Part shown: piece by piece, positions 2,305 through 27,676 of the stretch
How positions within the stretch are numbered: position 1 is the first letter of the stretch
How the letters are laid out: each line of letters starts with the position of its first letter
Source of the DNA: Dehalococcoidales bacterium
GTDB lineage: Bacteria > Chloroflexota > Dehalococcoidia > Dehalococcoidales > RBG-16-60-22
Direction of reading: 5' to 3'
NCBI GenBank assembly: GCA_050014095.1
Contig: JBEKDZ010000004.1
Location: forward strand, 8,359 to 72,358
Length of the DNA stretch: 64,000 bases
Position numbers and translations under genes: made by a program
The notes under the pieces: generated by a model
Databases searched by the model: none
What the model was told of the DNA's origin: nothing
Seen by the model: the letters and a program-made list of their open reading frames with translations, nothing else

Positions 2305-5255
2305 CACTTTTCTTGTTCGGAACGCGAAAGCAGCCAGACCCTAAGTCGGTCGTTAAGCTTGCCGGTCAGCGACTCTATTTTCGCTACGTCCCCGCTTAAG
2401 ATAGCCGCCTTTTCTGCGTCGTTAAGCTTATATCCCTTTAAAGCGTCCTCCGGGCCGCGGGCAACCTGGTCGACAAAAGCAGGTTCCCGGCTGGCGCGGT
2501 AGAGAGCCGATAGCATGGCTTCTTTGCCGCTGACCGCGTGCTTGCTGATTTTCACAGGGCAGGTCTTATATGCCGGCGTGCCGGTAATCGGGTCGAGCGT
2601 TTCTTTAGCGGAGCTGATAAGCTCATTAGTAGGCGTCTCCGCGAAGTGGAAAGCCATATGCACTACACCCGGCGGCACGGCATCGGTAACGCGCGCCCGG
2701 ACATTGACCTCCCCATGTCGGGAAGCTACCTGGATAATATCAGCCTGATTGATGCCCAGCGAGGCGGCGTCGGCAGGATTTATCTGGCACTCTTCCTCGT
2801 TCATGAGGATATTCAGCACATCCACCTTGCGCGTCATCGTGGCATGATAGTGATATAGCCGCCGTCCGGTCATCAGCATGAGGGGGTACTCGGCATCCGT
2901 CATCTGGACGGGCGGACGGTACTTAAGCGGCACGAAATTGCCTTTACCGGAAGGCCTGGCAAAGATTTCTTCGTGCATAATGCAGGTGCCGGGGTGGTCT
3001 TCGCTCGGGCAGGGCCATTGCAAACTGCCTTCATCGAGTCGCTTATAGGTAATGCCACCATAGCTGGGGGTAAGGCGGGCGATTTCTTCCATAATCTTGC
3101 TGGCATCCGCATAATCGAAGCCCTTGGCCCCCATGCACCGGGCTATCTCGCCGATAATCCAGCAATCGTCTTTGCTTTCGCCGATGGGTTCGATGGCTTT
3201 ACGGATACGCTGCACGCGGCGCTCGGTGTTAGTGAAAGTGCCATCTTTTTCCGCATAGCTGCAGGCAGGGAGAATTACATGGGCGTACTCTGCCGTCTCG
3301 TTAAGGAACATATCCTGGAAGACGAAGAAATCCAGCTTGCTTAGCGCCTCGCGGATATGGTGACTATCGGGGTCGGTCAGCACCGGATTCTCCCCCATGA
3401 TATACATAGCTTTTATATCACCGTCGAGTATAGCGGGGAACATCGTAGTCAGCTTCATGCCCGGCTCGCGGCTTAGCTTCACGCCCCAGGCCGCTTCGAA
3501 CTTCTTGACGGATTCATCGTTCGAGACCGACTGGTAGCCGGTAAAAACGTTAGGCAGCGCGCCCATATCGCAGGCGCCCTGGACGTTATTCTGTCCCCTT
3601 AGCGGGTTGACCCCGGCGCCGGGTTTGCCGATATTGCCGGTAAGCATGGCCAGGTTGCCGTTGGCGATGACATTATCCGTGCCGTGGCTATGCTCGCAGA
3701 TGCCCATGGCGTAGAGAATGGTGGCAGGGCTGGTGGTGGCATACATGCGGGCGGCTTTAACGAGCAGGTCGGCATCCACGCCGGTAGTTTTCGCCACCCA
3801 GTCCAGCGGGTAATTTTTAAGCGCGTCGCGGAAAGCCGCGAAATTCTCACAACGCTTTTCAACGAAGTCTTTATCGTACAATCCTTCGTCGTAAATAATG
3901 CGGCATAAACCCATGAGCAGGGCGACATCCGTGCCGACGCGGTGGCGAATCCAAAGGTCGGCATCACGCACAAAATCTACCTCCATGGGGTTGGCGACGA
4001 TGAGCTTGGCGCCATTGCGGACGACCTGCCGCACCTTCATCGCCAGAACGGGATGCGCCTCGGGGGCATTGGTGCCGATGGCAAGGACGCATTTAGCGTT
4101 AGCGAAGTCATCGATATTATTCGTCATCGCCCCGCTGCCGAAGGTAGTGGCCAGACCGGCCACGGTAGGGGCATGTCAAAGACGGGCACAGTGGTCGACG
4201 TTATTGGTATGCAGCACCGCCCGTCCGAACTTCTGCATGAGGTAGTTGGCTTCGTTGGTGCTCCGCGCCGAGGAAACCACACCGACCTCACTAGGTTTAT
4301 AGGTCTTTAGTTTACTGGCTACCAGGTTGAGAGCCTCTTCCCAGGTAGCTTTTTCAAACTTACCGTTCTTTTTAATGAGCGGGGTGGTCAGGCGGTCTTT
4401 AGAGTGGATGAAGTCCGCCACGCCGAAGCGCCCCTTGACGCAGAGATGCCCTTCATTGGAAGGACCTTCCTTATCGCCACGCACGCTGATGACCTCGCCG
4501 CCGCGGATGCCCAGGTAAACCTGGCAGCCCACCGCGCAGTAAGGGCAGGTGGTTTTTACCTCCCGCGTGACCAGGCGGCTCTCCCGGAAGGTAAGCGCGC
4601 CGGTGGGGCAGCGGGCAACACATTCCCCGCAGGTCTCACAGCGCGAAATCAAGATGGGTTTATCTCCCAGCGTACTTACCGTGGCTAAATCGCCCCGGAA
4701 AGCCATGTCGATAGCGTCGATGCCGGTTACCTCGTGGCAGGCGCGCCAGCAGCGACCGCAGAGAATACACTTATTCATGTCGCGCACATAAGCGGGGTTG
4801 CTATCATCAACGGGGACGACGCGGGTTCGTTTGCGGAGTCGGTTAAAATGTTTCTCCTCCACACCGAGATAGCGCGCCACTTTCTGGAGCTCGCAGTTCT
4901 GGTTCTTGAAGCAAGTGAGGCAATCACCCTGATGGTTAGCCATGATAAGCTCCATGGTGATGCGGCGGGAGCGACTCACCGCGGGCGTCTCGGTGTGAAC
5001 GACCATGTCGTTGGTAGCCTCGGTGGTGCAGGAAGGAGGCAGACCGCGCATTTTCTCAATCTCCACGATGCAAAGTCGGCAAGCGCCGTATGGCTTGAGG
5101 TCGGGCTCGTAGCAGAGAGTGGGGATATAGACGCTCGCCTTGAGGGCGGCTTCCAATACCGTCGTGCCCTGTGATACCTCAACTTTCACACCGTCGATAG
5201 TCAAAGAGATGGTCTTGAGCTTTTTATCATCTAACGCGGTCGAGCCATTCGTCAT
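2301..5255 (-). CDS. fdhA: Formate dehydrogenase catalytic subunit (Mo/W-bis-PGD, NuoG-like Fe-S N-terminus), selenocysteine-containing
   Basis: ORFs 4176..5255 and 2301..4163 share one frame and are joined by an in-frame TGA (minus strand, 4176-4178). The junction reads [27 protein letters not shown], the conserved Sec/Cys active-site motif. The N-terminus has 2Fe-2S (CYEPDLKPYGACRLC) and several 4Fe-4S Cys motifs, followed by molybdopterin domains. Confidence 0.9.
4147..4178 (-). promoter_or_regulatory. UGA(Sec) codon plus bacterial SECIS hairpin of fdhA
   Basis: The RNA reads UGA CAU GCC CCU ACC GUGGCC-GGUCU-GGCCAC. It forms a perfect 6-bp stem (plus-strand 4147-4163) with a GGUCU apical loop. 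This puts G and U at +23/+24 from the U of UGA, as I recall for the E. coli fdhF SECIS. Confidence 0.8.
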
Positions 5256-15366: not shown

Positions 15367-16425
15367 TCACGCCTTATATTTCTCCAGTGCCCCATAGAAA
15401 GCCCGCCAGAAGGGGTCGACGATGGGGTGCTCCAGCTTCTTTTCTTTGCCGTTTTCTACCAGCACCATGCCTTTTTCCGGCTGCGTCAGCTCGCCGACGA
15501 TTGATGCCTTAATGCCCTTTTGCGTCAGCGTTTTAACCACGGCCGGCGCTTTGTTTTCCTTGCAGGCGATAATCAGCGTGCCTTCACTAATAGAGGCATA
15601 GGGGTCGATGCCGAACAGTTGGCAAACCTCCTCGACAGACTCCTCAACGACGATTTTTTCTTTTTCCACCCTCACGCCCAGTCCCGATGCTTGAGCCACC
15701 TCGAACAGCCCGCCCCAGACGCCGCACTCGGTAGCATCGTGCATGGCGGTAACGCCTTTCTCCCTGACGCCGACGCTGACCGCCGTTAAAGCGTCTTCAA
15801 CGACCGTCATCTTATAAAAAACCTGCTGGGCTTTATGGTTAAGCTCCGCGCCGTATTTTTCGGTAATAACCCCGGGGAGCATCGCGGCGAAAATTCCGGT
15901 CGCTTCGATAGCCGGCCCCTTGGTAACGATTACTTTATCGCCGGCCCGGCAGAATTTAGGAGTAACGTATTCATTAAGTTCGCCGATGCCGACGATGGTA
16001 GCACCGCCGACCATCGGATAGTGGCAGCCTTCATAGCGGGCGGTGTGGCCGGTAATTACCGCAATACCCATCTTTTCGCACTCGCGGTGAATGATATCCC
16101 AGGTGATTTCCAGTTGCTGCTTGGTCATCTCCATCGGCAGGTTAAGATCGATGCTCAAGAACCTGGGCGTAAGTCCGCTGGTAACGGAGTCCGACGCGAT
16201 GATATGGATCGCGAACCAAGCGGCCCGCTCCCATCCATATTCCGGCACGATAAAAACGGGGTCGCAGGTAAAGGACACCGCTTTGCCCCCGATTTCCACG
16301 ATGCCAACATCCACGCCGTGCTGCGGTCCCACCAGTATGCTCTTACTTTTCGCACCCAGCCGCGGGTAAATCAGCTCGCTAAAAATTTCCGGTGAAATTT
16401 TCCCTATTTCCGGCATATCAGCCAT
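15367..16425 (-). CDS. PurM/AIR-synthase superfamily ATP-dependent enzyme (HypE/ThiL-like), exact function unassigned
   Basis: N-terminal region GPQHGVDVGIVEIGGKAVSFTCDP...IASDSVTSGLTP and C-terminal region AMHDATECGVWGGL fit the PurM-superfamily two-domain layout. Start ATG 16425 (MADMPEIGK) follows a GGAGG RBS. A TPP riboswitch lies immediately upstream. Confidence 0.7.
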   Translation of the reverse strand: MADMPEIGKISPEIFSELIYPRLGAKSKSILVGPQHGVDVGIVEIGGKAVSFTCDPVFIVPEYGWERAAWFAIHIIASDSVTSGLTPRFLSIDLNLPMEMTKQQLEITWDIIHRECEKMGIAVITGHTARYEGCHYPMVGGATIVGIGELNEYVTPKFCRAGDKVIVTKGPAIEATGIFAAMLPGVITEKYGAELNHKAQQVFYKMTVVEDALTAVSVGVREKGVTAMHDATECGVWGGLFEVAQASGLGVRVEKEKIVVEESVEEVCQLFGIDPYASISEGTLIIACKENKAPAVVKTLTQKGIKASIVGELTQPEKGMVLVENGKEKKLEHPIVDPFWRAFYGALEKYKA

Positions 16426-16437
16426 ATTAATACCTCC

Positions 16438-16579
16438 AAAAAACAACTAAACCAGAAGCTTGAGGGGAACCGACTTCTGGTTTTGGTTTCACTTCCCTAC
16501 GCTCGCATTACCGAGTTCAGGTTCAAAGGGTCTGTCCTTCCGTTATCGGAAGGACTCTCAGCCTACAGCTCCCCTAGTG
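16438..16579 (-). promoter_or_regulatory. TPP (THI-box) riboswitch with terminator-type expression platform
   Basis: The minus-strand RNA (16579->16490) reads CACUAGGGGAGCUGUAGGCUGAGAGUCCUUCCGAUAACGGAAGGACAGACCCUUUGAACCUGAACUCGGUAAUGCGAGCGUAGGGAAGUG. The conserved CUGAGA and ACCCUUUGAACCUGA..GGUAAUGC..GCGUAGGGAA elements are present, closed by a P1 helix CACU/AGUG. It is followed by hairpin AACCAGAAG-N15-CUUCUGGUU (16450-16482), a U-rich tract, the RBS and ATG 16425. Confidence 0.9.
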
Positions 16580-16603
16580 GCAATATTCAGTTGTGTTCAC
16601 ATT

Positions 16604-23931: not shown

Positions 23932-24360
23932 ATGCCCAGGACCAAATACGATAAATACATTACATCAGAAGTATTGTACAAAGACCCTAAAAATCCTAAC
24001 GCGAGTGTAACCAGCACGCGTCACCTGGGGGATAAATGGGGCGGAGGCCACCTGTCTATTGATACCATTTACGTTACCCATCCCCACGTGATGATATCCC
24101 AGCCGCATAAGCATGAGTTCCCTCAATACTTAAGCTTTTTCTCTGCCAACCCAAAAGACTCTAAAGACTTTGACGCGGAGATAGAGATAACGCTGGGGGA
24201 GGAGCAGGAAAAACACATTATCAAGTCACCTTCATCCGTATATGTTCCCACCGGATTATTGCACGGCCCCATCAACTTCGCCAAGATAAACAAACCGCTG
24301 TTGTTTATAGATATTGCCGTGACGGGCAAGTATTCCAGGGTGGGCAATACGCCGGACTAA
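23932..24360 (+). CDS. Cupin-fold hypothetical protein
   Basis: Cupin motif 1-like PHKHEFPQYLSF and motif 2-like VYVPTGLLHGPINF. Confidence 0.5.
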   Translation: MPRTKYDKYITSEVLYKDPKNPNASVTSTRHLGDKWGGGHLSIDTIYVTHPHVMISQPHKHEFPQYLSFFSANPKDSKDFDAEIEITLGEEQEKHIIKSPSSVYVPTGLLHGPINFAKINKPLLFIDIAVTGKYSRVGNTPD

Positions 24361-25316: not shown

Positions 25317-27002
25317 CTAATACCTTAGGTAATTGGGCACGATGTTCTTGTATTTCTTAACCAGCTGCGCCCAATTCTTCGGCAGCTCAACTTTTATCGT
25401 CACCGGATTAGGCCCGCCCTGCATAAGGCCCATCCACGACCCGAACCCACCGAAAACGAATATTTGAACGGGGTCGGGGTCGCGCGGGCTCGGCACCAGA
25501 ATAGCATTTTTATTAGCCGCACCGGTAATAACGACATTGCCGCGGTCGAAGGGTTTACTGTCGTCTAAGCCCAACCTCTTATAGTATCCGTCAGGCACGA
25601 CGGCGTTCTTCACGATAAAGTCTTTGACGGCTTTTTTTCTCCAGCCATCCTTCGCCAGTGAACCGGCGTTGGTAGGCGTTAGCAGTACCGCGAACATGCC
25701 CATACGAGCGGGCACGATGCTGCCCACCACCGTCGCCAGTATGCCTTTAGCGTCGGTGCCGAAGGGCATCATCTGCTGGAAGGACTGCGGAAACATAAGG
25801 GAAATGGCACTATCTTCTTTTTTAAAGCCTCGCTCGACATGCAGCGGCTCCCAGGGACTGTTCTCTTCGTTTTCCGCCGCCACAAAGGAGTATTTGCCGG
25901 GGTTGCCCAGCACGCCCATATCCTCGATTTGCTTGCGGATGCCACGGATGTTTTTAGTTATCAATCCCATCGCCCGCCCGATTGATGCGTTAGCGATATC
26001 CCCCGGACTGGTGGCGCCATAGGTCGAGCGCACGTTTATATCCTTAGCGATAGGCCCATTAATGAGCCAGAAAGGAGCGAACGAGCCGGTGCTCGCCGCC
26101 ATCATGCCGCAGACCGGGTTAGACGCCAGGGCATGCACGCCGGCGATGAGTAGCGGCATATAGGTCGGCAGGCAGCCTGCCATAACGGCGTTAATGGCGA
26201 TTTTTTCAATGGTGGCTTTGCCCAGGCGCGGCTCCAGCTTCTCCACCAGATGGTCAGCGGGGAAGTCGGTGCCGGTCATCATCTCCGCCACTGCTTCTTC
26301 GGTGGGAGGGATAATGGGGAGTCCGTCCGTCCAGCCGCGCTGGTAGAAGAACTGGTTGACCTCCGCCAGCGTGCCCTTGAAAATAAGGCGCGTGGGGTTC
26401 TCTGCTTCCCGGCGCTTGGGCGCTTTCTCCTCGTCGGTCAACGGCTTTGTCAATACGGCGACGACGTTATTGAATACCGCTTTGACAGCGGCTACGATAT
26501 CCTCCACGACGGTCGACTCGGAGACGATGGTCTCCGGCACAATCCTTATCACCGGCATGCCTTTGCTGGATGCCGCGGACATGGCGTCGTTATGAAAATG
26601 CTCGAAGACGTAGGTGGCAGTCGGCTTGCCCTTGCCCTCGATATAAATTGCGTCGTACACAAGGTACTTGGTGCATGCCCCTCAGTCGCCGACGGCGGCG
26701 ATAACCGCATCCACCCCCTTTAGCCAGTCGTTAAACTCCCCTTCCCTGTCCTTTTCCAGGGAGGAAACGGAGAACGACCGGGCGAAAAACTTGGTGATAG
26801 ACACGGAAGGGAATTTTTCATTAATCAGCTTCTCCGTGACGTCGAGGATAAGCGTAGCGGCGCGTTTGTTGTTGCATAGCAGACCTATTTTCTTGCCGTC
26901 CAGCTTATCCAGTCGCGGCGAAAGACCCTTTAACTGAACGGGGTCGGCTTCCGCCCAGGGACTTAGTACTTCATAAGTAGGAGTTGCTTTTTCTGCACTC
27001 AT
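25317..27002 (-). CDS. Candidate selenoprotein: ORFs 26682..27002 and 25317..26660 fused through an in-frame UGA (U-G-A-C motif; UGSC-family-like)
   Basis: Same frame. The junction reads ...GVDAVIAAVGD-UGA-GACTKYLVYDAIYIEGK. There is only a 21-nt gap, with no RBS and no in-frame ATG for the downstream part (the track start is a GTG). A good RBS (AAGGAAG) precedes only ATG 27002. The genome demonstrably decodes Sec (fdhA). Confidence 0.6.
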
Positions 27003-27064
27003 ATTGATACTTCCTTTTCTCCAGTAATAAGTATAAAAAATATCCCATCTTTAAGGACAGAATG

Positions 27065-27379
27065 TCAGGACTTTGTTTGGCCGATAAACGACTGCATTAA
27101 AATTTTCCCATCTCGGATGTGAAATGTGTCACCACCGAATAGGACCGCCGGAACCGCCGACCAGAGGACGTAGGCATATTCTCCATAAATTTCTTGCCTG
27201 ATGGTCTTCATGTTAGCTATCACTTCGGGTGTATATATAGTTATTATTCTTGAAAAACTCGCTCGTATACTATTGAGTCCTTTCTGAGACAAGCGCTTGT
27301 ACATGGTTTTGTAATACCGCTTCAATTGCTCCTGTAGCCATATAGACTCCTTTATATACTTATATTGATTCGCCCACAA
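27065..27379 (-). CDS. Hypothetical protein, possibly NTF2/SnoaL-like fold
   Basis: C-terminal GGDTFHIRDGKILMQSF resembles the SnoaL-like family ending. AT-richer than its neighbours (by eye). Confidence 0.35.
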   Translation of the reverse strand: MWANQYKYIKESIWLQEQLKRYYKTMYKRLSQKGLNSIRASFSRIITIYTPEVIANMKTIRQEIYGEYAYVLWSAVPAVLFGGDTFHIRDGKILMQSFIGQTKS

Positions 27380-27394
27380 TAGTAACTAATTTTT

Positions 27395-27676
27395 TTATCC
27401 GCCGGTCATTGGCACGAGCAGCGCAATGCGGTCGCCCGGGTGCAGCTCGAAGTTCTGACCGTCGAAGTAGAACTTACCGTTGATATTGAACTTGTACTGC
27501 TCGACGAGGCGGTCTTCTCCGGGGCGGATAACCCGTCCTTCCAATGAAGGTATTTGCTTTCTCATCGCGGCTATCACTTCCGGCATTGTCGCGCCGTCGC
27601 GCAGCTCCACTTCAACCTCGCGCAACTCCGTTATCTCGCGTGGGAGACCGTACATGGGTATAACGACTTTAAACAT
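27395..27676 (-). CDS. MoaD/ThiS-family ubiquitin-like sulfur-carrier protein (C-terminal Gly-Gly)
   Basis: 93 aa ending ...RIALLVPMTGG-stop. A beta-grasp-like pattern precedes it (INGKFYFDGQNFELHPGDRIALL). Confidence 0.7.
   Translation of the reverse strand: MFKVVIPMYGLPREITELREVEVELRDGATMPEVIAAMRKQIPSLEGRVIRPGEDRLVEQYKFNINGKFYFDGQNFELHPGDRIALLVPMTGG

What the first reader, a model, noticed from the sequence alone, without database searches (positions are those of the whole stretch)
26640..26700. Second in-frame UGA: candidate U-G-A-C selenoprotein hidden as two adjacent ORFs
ORFs 26682..27002 and 25317..26660 are in the same frame, separated only by TGA and 6 sense codons.
- The junction reads VDAVIAAVGD-U-GAC-TKYLVYDAIY, a UxxC redox-type motif at the end of a beta-strand-like segment.
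- The downstream part has no RBS and only a GTG start.
- The same genome decodes Sec in fdhA.
- I recall a UGSC-motif (seleno)protein family from marine metagenome selenoproteome surveys, and this looks like a UGAC variant.
- Downstream of the UGA, the only structure I can find by hand is a weak helix: UGC/GCA plus GUAC/GUAC with a CUUGU loop at about +22 to +26. SECIS support is therefore much weaker than for fdhA.
Basis: partly seen in the sequence, partly recalled or inferred. Interest (0 to 1): 0.65.

Follow-up and report, generated by a model that had tools for sequence, protein, structure and literature searches.

The report
Miscalled UGSC-family selenoprotein fusion gene
The two adjacent reading frames are one 561-residue gene whose in-frame UGA encodes selenocysteine; it belongs to the already described "UGSC" selenoprotein family of unknown function, fused here to a large uncharacterised domain.

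Summary
The interpretation also holds.

- The fused translation matches Pfam UGSC (PF24696, 94 bits, cut-off 25) across residues 12-185, spanning the TGA.
- In 80 related loci from many phyla, the aligned codon is TGA in 64, TGC (Cys) in 3, and Ala/Met/Val in the rest.
- Contiguous 530-620-aa homologues carry CGSC or AGSC at this site.
- Synonymous-codon conservation peaks just after the UGA.
- The weak GUAC/GUAC hairpin (loop CUUGU) has its loop at +22..+26, the same position as the fdhA SECIS loop in this window. Distant relatives have a full 7-bp helix there.

UGSC-containing proteins have been a known selenoprotein family since 2005-2008, and a fusion to an unknown domain was reported in 2008. 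This is therefore a new, mis-annotated member (UGAC variant), not a new kind.

The residual interest is the roughly 370-aa C-terminal domain. It has no Pfam model and no convincing PDB fold match, and it often sits next to a thioredoxin-reductase-like gene. Function remains unknown; a selenol/thiol redox role is inferred.

The parts
25317..27002 (-). Single CDS of 561 codons (560 standard residues + Sec107) ending in TAG. Public gene calls split it into a 106-aa ORF and a 447-aa ORF.
   Evidence: One search gives the translation. One search shows the Pfam domain spanning the TGA. Searches show contiguous homologues aligned end to end. One search shows that all 120 closest database homologues were called as 413-451 aa (nearly all 443-447), i.e. 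truncated at the same place.
26682..26684 (-). UGA codon read as selenocysteine (Sec107), first residue of the U-G-A-C motif.
   Evidence: TGA at this column in 64 of 80 related loci, TGC in 3. Cys in 13 of the 147 homologues of at least 500 aa that were tallied. TGA also ends 9 ordinary ORFs in this window, so the standard code applies.
26673..26675 (-). Cys110 (TGC), the partner cysteine of the UxxC motif.
   Evidence: the 'GSC' cysteine is kept in most homologues, including those with Ala in place of Sec.
26448..26969 (-). UGSC-family domain (residues 12-185). It is predicted to be a parallel beta/alpha domain, with Sec between a beta-strand and the N-terminus of a helix.
   Evidence: PF24696, 94 bits against a cut-off of 25. 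AF2 model of the 47%-identical homologue P0123 has strand 102-108, the U-equivalent at residue 110, and helix 111-126; the Foldseek hits are flavodoxin-like domains.
26649..26675 (-). Candidate SECIS. Upper stem GUAC (26667-26664) pairs with GUAC (26658-26655). The loop is CUUGU (26663-26659), at +22..+26 counting the U of UGA as +1. An optional lower stem is UGC (26675-26673) / GCA (26651-26649).
   Evidence: the fdhA hairpin of this window has its loop GGUCU at the same +22..+26 position; the helix 15-21/27-33 is paired in 65% of cells against 56% in shuffles (0 of 500 shuffles reach it), with AU/GC and CG/GC exchanges; synonymous-codon identity peaks here; the fold alone is not significant.
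25320..26405 (-). C-terminal domain of about 360 aa with unknown function. Its invariant core is GWTDGxPxxPPT ... ATxEKIAxNAVMAGC (Cys277 at 26172-26174).
   Evidence: no Pfam or NCBIfam model, even for standalone proteins of about 350 aa; no PDB sequence relative; a confident AF2 model (pLDDT 89.7) with no PDB match at E <= 0.001; 4723 clusters at 50% identity match the post-UGA query, which includes about 80 residues of the UGSC domain.
27010..27015 (-). Shine-Dalgarno-like AGGAAG, 7 nt upstream of the ATG at 27002.
   Evidence: Read directly. No equivalent precedes the GTG at 26660.

Best explanation
Window 25317-27002 (minus strand) is one gene for a 561-residue selenoprotein. The UGA at 26682-26684 is decoded as selenocysteine, presumably by SelB and tRNA-Sec. 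These are probably recruited by a short hairpin that lies inside the coding sequence, with its loop 19-23 nt past the UGA. The N-terminal ~185 residues form a UGSC-family domain. Its U-G-A-C motif sits where a beta-strand meets the N-terminus of a helix, the usual position for a redox-active or nucleophilic pair. The C-terminal ~370 residues form a conserved, uncharacterised domain.

Shown: single gene, family membership, Sec/Cys correspondence, an RNA-level constraint after the UGA, and the two-domain architecture.

Inferred: Sec107 and Cys110 cycle between a selenol/thiol state and a selenenylsulfide. They would deliver electrons to, or attack, a substrate bound by the C-terminal domain, and be re-reduced by a thioredoxin-reductase-type system. 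The chemical reaction itself is unknown.
For: - Pfam UGSC matches residues 12-185 across the stop. All 17 aligned full-length relatives hit only this family.
- The TGA column is conserved in 64 of 80 loci from Dehalococcoidales, Acidobacteriota, Desulfatiglans, Burkholderiales, Tectomicrobia and Nitrospiraceae, at 31-87% protein identity. TGC occurs in 3 loci.
- Contiguous homologues of 528-619 aa align end to end, with CGSC, AGSC or GGSC at the motif.
- The 12 highest of 546 sliding windows for synonymous-codon identity all lie within -6..+5 codons of the UGA (0.63 against a gene mean of 0.42, sd 0.06).
- The hairpin loop occupies the same positions as the fdhA SECIS loop in the same window. 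The helix is supported across the 66 distinct TGA-carrying sequences (65 loci plus the window).
- fdhA in the window carries Sec with an Rfam SECIS_3 match, so this genome decodes Sec.
- A TrxR-like gene lies 23-152 nt downstream on the same strand in 8 related loci.
- The U-equivalent sits between a strand and a helix N-terminus in a confident model.
- The literature lists the UGSC-containing protein as an abundant selenoprotein family with a UxxC motif, and reports a UGSC/Unknown_1 fusion (PMC2398784).
Against: - The hairpin in the window has only 4 base pairs, with U rather than G at +23, and folds no better than shuffled sequence.
- Rfam has no match at this site.
- No tRNA-Sec, selA, selB or selD was found inside the 64-kb window.
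- The NCBIfam equivalog NF041046 scores 76 bits, below its cut-off of 125.
- Most contiguous homologues have Ala, not Cys, at the Sec column (99 of 147). The first redox residue is therefore dispensable in a large sister clade, which weakens a strict two-residue redox mechanism.
- The TrxR-like neighbour is absent from the window itself, and no neighbour is universal.
- There is no experimental evidence for selenium incorporation or for any activity.
Confidence: 0.9

Rival explanations
1. These are two separate genes. The TGA is a genuine stop ending a 106-aa UGSC-like protein, and the 447-aa protein starts independently at GTG 26660. This is how all public annotations call it.
For: Gene callers produced 413-451-aa products (nearly all 443-447) for all 120 closest homologues, and a separate 101-aa UGSC ORF in L001. 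TGA is used as an ordinary stop elsewhere in the window.
Against: The Pfam domain continues across the stop. The 7 codons between the TGA and the GTG are conserved as coding sequence, including the motif cysteine. There is no RBS before the GTG. Homologues with Cys or Ala at the column are contiguous. Standard gene callers cannot call Sec, so their output is not evidence either way.
Confidence: 0.04
2. The UGA is read through, but not as Sec. Near-cognate tRNA would insert Cys or Trp, or the lineage has reassigned the stop codon.
For: The SECIS candidate is weak in this clade. No Sec machinery is visible in the window.
Against: The column aligns with Cys in homologues, as expected for Sec. fdhA in the same window has a classical Sec codon plus a SECIS_3 match. 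TGA terminates 9 other long ORFs here. Synonymous-site constraint after the UGA points to an RNA signal.
Confidence: 0.04
3. This is a pseudogene or an assembly or sequencing error that created a premature stop.
For: None specific. It is a generic possibility for MAG-derived sequence.
Against: The same TGA occurs in 64 independent assemblies from several phyla, with both flanks under coding constraint.
Confidence: 0.01

Closest known systems
UGSC-containing selenoprotein family (Pfam PF24696; NCBIfam NF041046; Zhang & Gladyshev 2008, PMC2398784; reference member ABI76733.1 of Hyphomonas neptunium)
   Same: It shares the domain (94 bits against a gathering score of 25), Sec at the first position of a UxxC motif, and Sec forms far outnumbering Cys forms (255 vs 21 in GOS; 64 TGA vs 3 TGC here). 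Function is unknown in both cases.
   Different: The motif is U-G-A-C rather than U-G-S-C. The protein is 561 aa with a ~370-aa C-terminal extension, whereas the NCBIfam equivalog models a 147-aa standalone protein and the window protein scores below its cut-off (76 vs 125 bits). The predicted fold looks flavodoxin/Rossmann-like, not the Trx-like fold suggested in the 2008 paper.
'UGSC/Unknown_1' fusion selenoprotein (Fig. S1A of PMC2398784)
   Same: A UGSC domain is fused to a conserved domain of unknown function that contains a conserved Cys. Here the conserved Cys is Cys277 in NAVMAGC.
   Different: The published alignment is held only as an image. Identity of 'Unknown_1' with this C-terminal domain could therefore not be tested.
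Selenoprotein B-type reductase subunits (GrdB / PrdB, Pfam PF07355), UxxC selenoenzymes that cleave C-N bonds reductively and are recycled via thioredoxin
   Same: They share the UxxC motif, a plausible dependence on a thioredoxin-reductase-type partner (adjacent gene in 8 related loci), and frequent neighbourhood with amino-acid or peptide uptake genes.
   Different: No sequence similarity was detected, there is no pyruvoyl-subunit partner, and the domain architecture differs. This is an analogy for how the protein might work, not family membership.
fdhA Sec codon and SECIS of the same window (Rfam SECIS_3-like)
   Same: A 5-nt apical loop at +22..+26 from the U of UGA, with U at +24.
   Different: fdhA has a 6-bp GC-rich stem and G23-U24. 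The UGSC gene has a 4-bp GUAC/GUAC stem and U23-U24, and no Rfam match.

Membership tests
UGSC family (Pfam PF24696) | Profile HMM score at or above the gathering threshold over the whole domain | tested here: met
   94 bits against 25, residues 12-185 matching model positions 2-171 of 172. The match spans the TGA.
UGSC family (Pfam PF24696) | U/C-G-S-C motif at the conserved column after ...V(I/V)xxxGD | tested here: met
   the window has GD-U-G-A-C, with Ser replaced by Ala. The same UGAC occurs in L001-L008, L010, L023 and L037.
UGSC family (seleno)protein, NCBIfam NF041046 (equivalog, 147 aa) | Score at or above the curated cut-off of 125 bits | tested here: not met
   76.4 bits. The fused form is a relative, not a member of the standalone equivalog.
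Bacterial selenoprotein gene | In-frame UGA conserved in orthologues and aligned with Cys in some homologues | tested here: met
   TGA in 64 loci and TGC in 3. Cys-containing contiguous homologues include P0127, P0153, P0189, P0192 and P0208.
Bacterial selenoprotein gene | SECIS hairpin immediately downstream of the UGA, with an apical loop about 20 nt away | tested here: inconclusive
   The window has a 4-bp stem with a 5-nt loop at the same position as the fdhA loop. The helix is supported across relatives, and there is a peak of synonymous-site constraint. However, the single-sequence fold is not significant and Rfam has no match.
Bacterial selenoprotein gene | The genome encodes the Sec machinery (selA, selB, selC, selD) | not testable with these tools
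   No tRNA-Sec is present in the 64-kb window, and the rest of the genome was not available. Indirect support comes from fdhA, which has a Sec codon and a SECIS_3 match.
Bacterial selenoprotein gene | Selenium physically incorporated at the UGA position | not testable with these tools
   This needs 75Se labelling or mass spectrometry.
Thioredoxin-fold oxidoreductases (suggested for UGSC in PMC2398784) | Trx fold, with CxxC at the N-terminus of helix 1 of a mixed beta-sheet core | tested here: inconclusive
   The AF2 model of a 47%-identical homologue shows repeated beta-alpha units. The best PDB matches are flavodoxin-like, SIS, G-domain or GDSL folds, and none is a Trx-fold protein, but all are weak (E >= 1.8e-3).
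GrdB/PrdB selenoprotein B family (PF07355) | Sequence match to the GRDB profile | tested here: not met
   no hit, even at E <= 10, in any of the 17 family members.

The most novel reading that the evidence does not exclude
The UGSC domain and the uncharacterised ~370-aa C-terminal domain together form a new type of selenoenzyme. The C-terminal domain has a fold not represented in the PDB and would bind a small organic substrate. The Sec-x-x-Cys pair of the N-terminal domain would reduce or cleave that substrate and be recycled by a dedicated thioredoxin-reductase-like partner. This would finally assign a reaction to one of the most abundant environmental selenoprotein families.
Probability: 0.25. 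Interest if true: 0.6.

Novelty: new member of a known kind. Interest (0 to 1): 0.3.

Why it matters
- Annotation: this gene and all 120 of its closest database relatives are called as truncated 'hypothetical proteins'. Recognising the Sec codon restores a 561-aa protein and adds a second selenoprotein to this Dehalococcoidales-like genome.
- Biology: the UGSC family is among the most abundant selenoprotein families in aquatic metagenomes, yet it has had no assigned function since it was first described. This analysis yields three concrete handles for experiments:
  - The Sec form is the dominant state across at least six phyla.
  - It is fused to a very large domain family (more than 4,700 clusters at 50% identity) that has no Pfam model and no convincing fold match to a solved structure.
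  - It repeatedly sits next to a TrxR-like gene.
- None of this changes the category of the finding. It is a known family.

Tried and rejected
- Single-sequence RNA folding of 31-, 60- and 91-nt stretches after the UGA gave z-scores between -0.39 and +0.22, so it is uninformative.
- RNAalifold on clades A, B and C, and on all sequences together, gave only weak and inconsistent consensus structures. I moved to a fixed-register test against the fdhA geometry.
- An Rfam scan of the site at E <= 10 found nothing. Rfam SECIS models appear to be gene-specific, since fdhA hits SECIS_3.
I used the post-UGA 454-aa piece, a contiguous 47%-identical homologue (P0123), and the window's C-terminal domain instead.
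- A PDB sequence search with the family profile found nothing below E = 0.3.
- Foldseek searches of the full-length model and of the C-terminal model gave no match at E <= 0.001. The best hits were class I fumarase alpha and 'Toblerone-fold' cyclic amide hydrolases, with TM <= 0.29 and rmsd about 15 A, too weak to use.
- The search for a universally conserved neighbour gene found none. The best neighbour clusters occur in at most 13 of about 80 loci.
- The supplement of PMC2398784 holds Fig. S1A only as an image, so the 'Unknown_1' domain could not be compared.
- A relationship to GrdB/PrdB was considered and rejected as membership, because no profile hit exists. It is kept only as a mechanistic analogy.

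Full report
**Observation.** The region was read on both strands. The gene lies on the minus strand.
- The ATG is at 27002, preceded by AGGAAG 7 nt upstream.
- The reading frame runs to a TGA at 26684-26682, continues through GGG GCA TGC ACC AAG TAC CTT, and reaches the GTG at 26660 where ORF callers restart. It ends at the TAG at 25319-25317.
- The only slip is that 7 codons, not 6, separate the TGA from the GTG. The fused length of 561 is correct.
- The + strand ORFs overlapping the site (26250-26723 and 26668-26937) have no support and were not pursued.

**Family membership.** With Cys substituted for the stop, the protein matches Pfam UGSC (PF24696) at 94 bits (gathering score 25). The match covers residues 12-185, running straight through position 107. 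NCBIfam NF041046, 'UGSC family (seleno)protein', also matches over residues 35-185. It scores 76 bits, below its equivalog cut-off of 125. That model describes a 147-aa standalone protein, so the window gene is a relative rather than a member. The remaining ~375 residues hit nothing in Pfam or NCBIfam.

**Is the TGA decoded?**
- The 120 closest database proteins (73-100% identity, Dehalococcoidales and Chloroflexi MAGs) are all 413-451 aa (nearly all 443-447). Every one was truncated at the same point by gene callers.
- In one such contig, a 101-aa ORF hitting PF24696 directly precedes the 447-aa ORF, with the same TGA junction.
- An exhaustive search of 1.84 billion cluster representatives, using the post-UGA piece as query, found contiguous proteins of 530-620 aa whose match begins at about residue 100-115. 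When fetched and aligned, they cover the whole fused sequence. At the Sec column they read CGSC (P0127, P0153, P0192, P0208), CGNC (P0189), AGSC or GGSC (many), or SGAA/SNSP (P0121, P0123).
- A scan of one genome per GTDB species returned 80 loci. Mapping the column codon by codon gave TGA in 64 loci, TGC in 3, and GCx, ATG or GTx in 10; two loci did not reach the column, and in L050 the neighbouring Asp is not conserved. The TGA loci include Dehalococcoidales, Acidobacteriota, Desulfatiglans and Thermodesulfobacteriota, Burkholderiales and Betaproteobacteria, Tectomicrobia and Nitrospiraceae, with protein identity to the window from 87% down to 31%.
- A profile search returned 120 contiguous full-length proteins (556-589 aa), all PF24696-positive and all named 'hypothetical' where a source gives a name.
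- Among the 147 fetched homologues of at least 500 aa that could be tallied, the column is Ala in 99, Cys in 13, Ile in 11, Met in 7, Ser in 5 and Gly in 5. The downstream Cys is mostly retained.
- TGA ends 9 other long ORFs in this window (10 of the 45 counted, one being the fdhA Sec codon), so the standard code is in use.

Together these results exclude a sequencing error, a pseudogene and two independent genes. They show the Sec/Cys correspondence that defines a selenoprotein column.

**SECIS.**
- Folded alone, the 31-91 nt after the UGA are no more stable than shuffled sequence. Rfam finds nothing at E <= 10.
- The window's own fdhA provides a reference. It has TGA at 4176-4178 in the context CARL*HAPTVAGL and matches Rfam SECIS_3 (42 bits, E = 8.8e-9). 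Its hairpin is GUGGCC/GGCCAC with loop GGUCU. Counting the U of UGA as +1, the stem occupies 16-21/27-32 and the loop 22-26. From my own knowledge, this matches the E. coli fdhF arrangement with G23-U24.
- In the UGSC gene, the GUAC/GUAC stem occupies 18-21/27-30 and the loop CUUGU occupies 22-26, so the loop position is the same.
- In the distant 'SW..HD' clade, the same positions form a perfect 7-bp helix, GUCGUGG-AGUGU-CCACGAC, with G23-U24.
- On the 66 distinct TGA-carrying sequences, the helix 15-21/27-33 is paired in 65% of cells, against 56% in shuffles (0 of 500 reach it) and 19-48% in slid registers. Pair 20:28 alternates AU (27) with GC (21), and pair 21:27 alternates CG (24) with GC (23). 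These exchanges coincide with amino-acid differences between clades, so they represent few independent events.
- Independently of any structure model, synonymous-codon identity in 12-codon windows across 30 orthologues peaks immediately after the UGA. It is 0.63 at offset +1, against a gene mean of 0.416 (sd 0.064). The 12 best of 546 windows all lie between -6 and +5. In the window's clade, AAG TAC CTT GTG TAC GA is invariant, including at third positions.
- My conclusion is that an RNA signal overlaps the coding sequence here, and the short hairpin is the best candidate for it. In this clade it is minimal and non-canonical (U23).
- A middle clade (L016-L035) lacks this hairpin. It shares a conserved potential hairpin about 57 nt downstream, which I cannot explain.

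**Architecture and structure.**
- The fused sequence itself could not be submitted. I modelled P0123, a contiguous homologue 47% identical to the window, with a 128-sequence alignment. The result was pLDDT 88.7 and pTM 0.91.
- The N-terminal domain is a series of beta-alpha units. The U-equivalent residue (110) lies between strand 102-108 and helix 111-126.
- Foldseek against the PDB gave only weak matches (E >= 1.8e-3), all to flavodoxin-like, SIS, GDSL or G-domain three-layer sandwiches and none to thioredoxin folds.
- The window's own C-terminal domain (residues 190-561) modelled confidently (pLDDT 89.7, pTM 0.90). It has no PDB match at E <= 0.001. The best hits are class I fumarase alpha and Toblerone-fold amide hydrolases, with TM <= 0.29 and rmsd about 15 A.
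- No PDB sequence relative exists.
- The C-terminal domain also occurs alone in proteins of about 350 aa, which likewise lack any Pfam hit.
- Its invariant core is GW(T)xGxPxxPPT ... ATxEKIAxNAVMAGC, plus N351, E360, D361 and the AENEExSPW motif.

**Genomic context.**
- ORFs around the target in the 81 fetched loci (80 from the genome scan plus L001) and the window were clustered. No neighbour is universal.
- Many loci carry two or more paralogues of the target.
- The recurrent neighbours are:
  - A 307-aa pyridine-nucleotide-disulphide oxidoreductase with a CxxC motif (low-Mr thioredoxin-reductase type), lying 23-152 nt downstream on the same strand in 8 loci.
  - A short-chain dehydrogenase, adjacent in about 6 loci.
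  - A small cupin-like protein in 10 loci, including the window (23932-24360).
  - Rhodanese-domain proteins in 7 loci.
  - Peptide-type ABC transporter genes (SBP_bac_5/Opp) in about 9 loci.
- In the window, the gene is tightly spaced with a ThiS-like gene and a 104-aa ORF upstream, and an SPFH gene downstream.

**Mechanism.** It is shown that this is one gene, a Sec codon, a UGSC domain and a fused unknown domain. The rest is inferred. Sec107 and Cys110 would act as a selenol/thiol redox or nucleophilic pair serving the C-terminal domain, and would be recycled by a thioredoxin-reductase-type system, loosely analogous to GrdB/PrdB-type reductases. The large AGSC sister clade, where Ala replaces Sec, shows that the first residue is not universally required. 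The chemistry may therefore differ between clades, or it may rest mainly on the second Cys.

**Comparison with what is known.**
- The UGSC-containing protein is an established selenoprotein family. It was reported from Hyphomonas neptunium and from environmental data (PMC1976440).
- It is listed as one of the most abundant families in the GOS data, with 255 Sec and 21 Cys sequences and a UxxC motif. The same paper reports a 'UGSC/Unknown_1' fusion (PMC2398784).
- Reviews in 2022 and 2026 still list it as functionally uncharacterised.
- Whether 'Unknown_1' is the domain seen here could not be checked, because the figure is held only as an image.

**Verdict.** The finding is a mis-annotated new member (UGAC variant, fused form) of a known selenoprotein family. 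It is of modest interest. The unexplored C-terminal domain and its TrxR-like partner are the parts worth following up.

Noticed in passing
window 4123-4181 (-), Sec codon 4176-4178: fdhA (formate dehydrogenase alpha) is split by an in-frame TGA in the context CARL*HAPTVAGL. The downstream hairpin matches Rfam SECIS_3 (42 bits, E = 8.8e-9, below the gathering score of 63).
   Followed up: yes
window 25320-26405 (-), and standalone homologues P0214, P0224, P0235, P0261, P0266: The ~370-aa C-terminal domain represents a very large family. The post-UGA query, which also includes about 80 residues of the UGSC domain, finds 4723 clusters at 50% identity. The domain has no Pfam or NCBIfam model, no PDB sequence relative and no convincing PDB fold match, despite confident AF2 models.
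   Followed up: partly
L009 4577-5500, L013 7632-8555, L033 7703-8680, L036 1313-2236, L040 1046-1969, L054 2344-3267, L055 7320-8243, L078 3278-4198: A low-Mr thioredoxin-reductase-like gene (Pyr_redox_2, CxxC motif) lies 23-152 nt downstream of the UGSC-fusion gene on the same strand in eight loci. It is absent from the window itself.
   Followed up: partly
L016-L035 and L041, about +50 to +70 nt after the UGA: Acidobacteriota and Desulfatiglans relatives lack the +18..+30 hairpin. They share the near-identical nucleotides AAG CCG GTC GTG TTA CTG GC, which can form a GCCGGU/ACUGGC hairpin. That is too far from the UGA for a canonical bacterial SECIS, and it remains unexplained.
   Followed up: no
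window 23932-24360 (+): A 142-aa ORF has no Pfam hit. Its homologue from L020 matches Cupin_2 weakly (24 bits, below the gathering score). Homologues recur within a few kb of the UGSC-fusion gene in 10 loci.
   Followed up: partly
window 27065-27676 (-): A ThiS-family gene (27395-27676) and a 104-aa ORF with no family match (27065-27379) lie upstream of the selenoprotein gene on the same strand, with gaps of 15 and 62 nt. An SPFH/Band_7 gene follows after 31 nt. This may be an operon.
   Followed up: no
L047-L050 (one Chloroflexi MAG), L049 in particular: Single genomes carry many paralogues of the fusion gene. In L049 several copies are each directly preceded by an SBP_bac_5 substrate-binding protein gene (gaps of 13-32 nt).
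   Followed up: no
P0127; P0191 and P0194: A Cys-form homologue (P0127) starts with a twin-arginine-like signal (RRSFFRDL...). Two 1.2-kaa proteins (P0191 and P0194) carry a CGLC motif at the aligned Sec column; P0191, the one scanned, embeds the UGSC domain between other parts, including Cu_amine_oxidN1 repeats. Some family members are therefore probably extracytoplasmic.
   Followed up: no
window 16477-16585 (-): A TPP riboswitch (Rfam RF00059, 66.6 bits) lies upstream of the ORF at 15367-16446.
   Followed up: no
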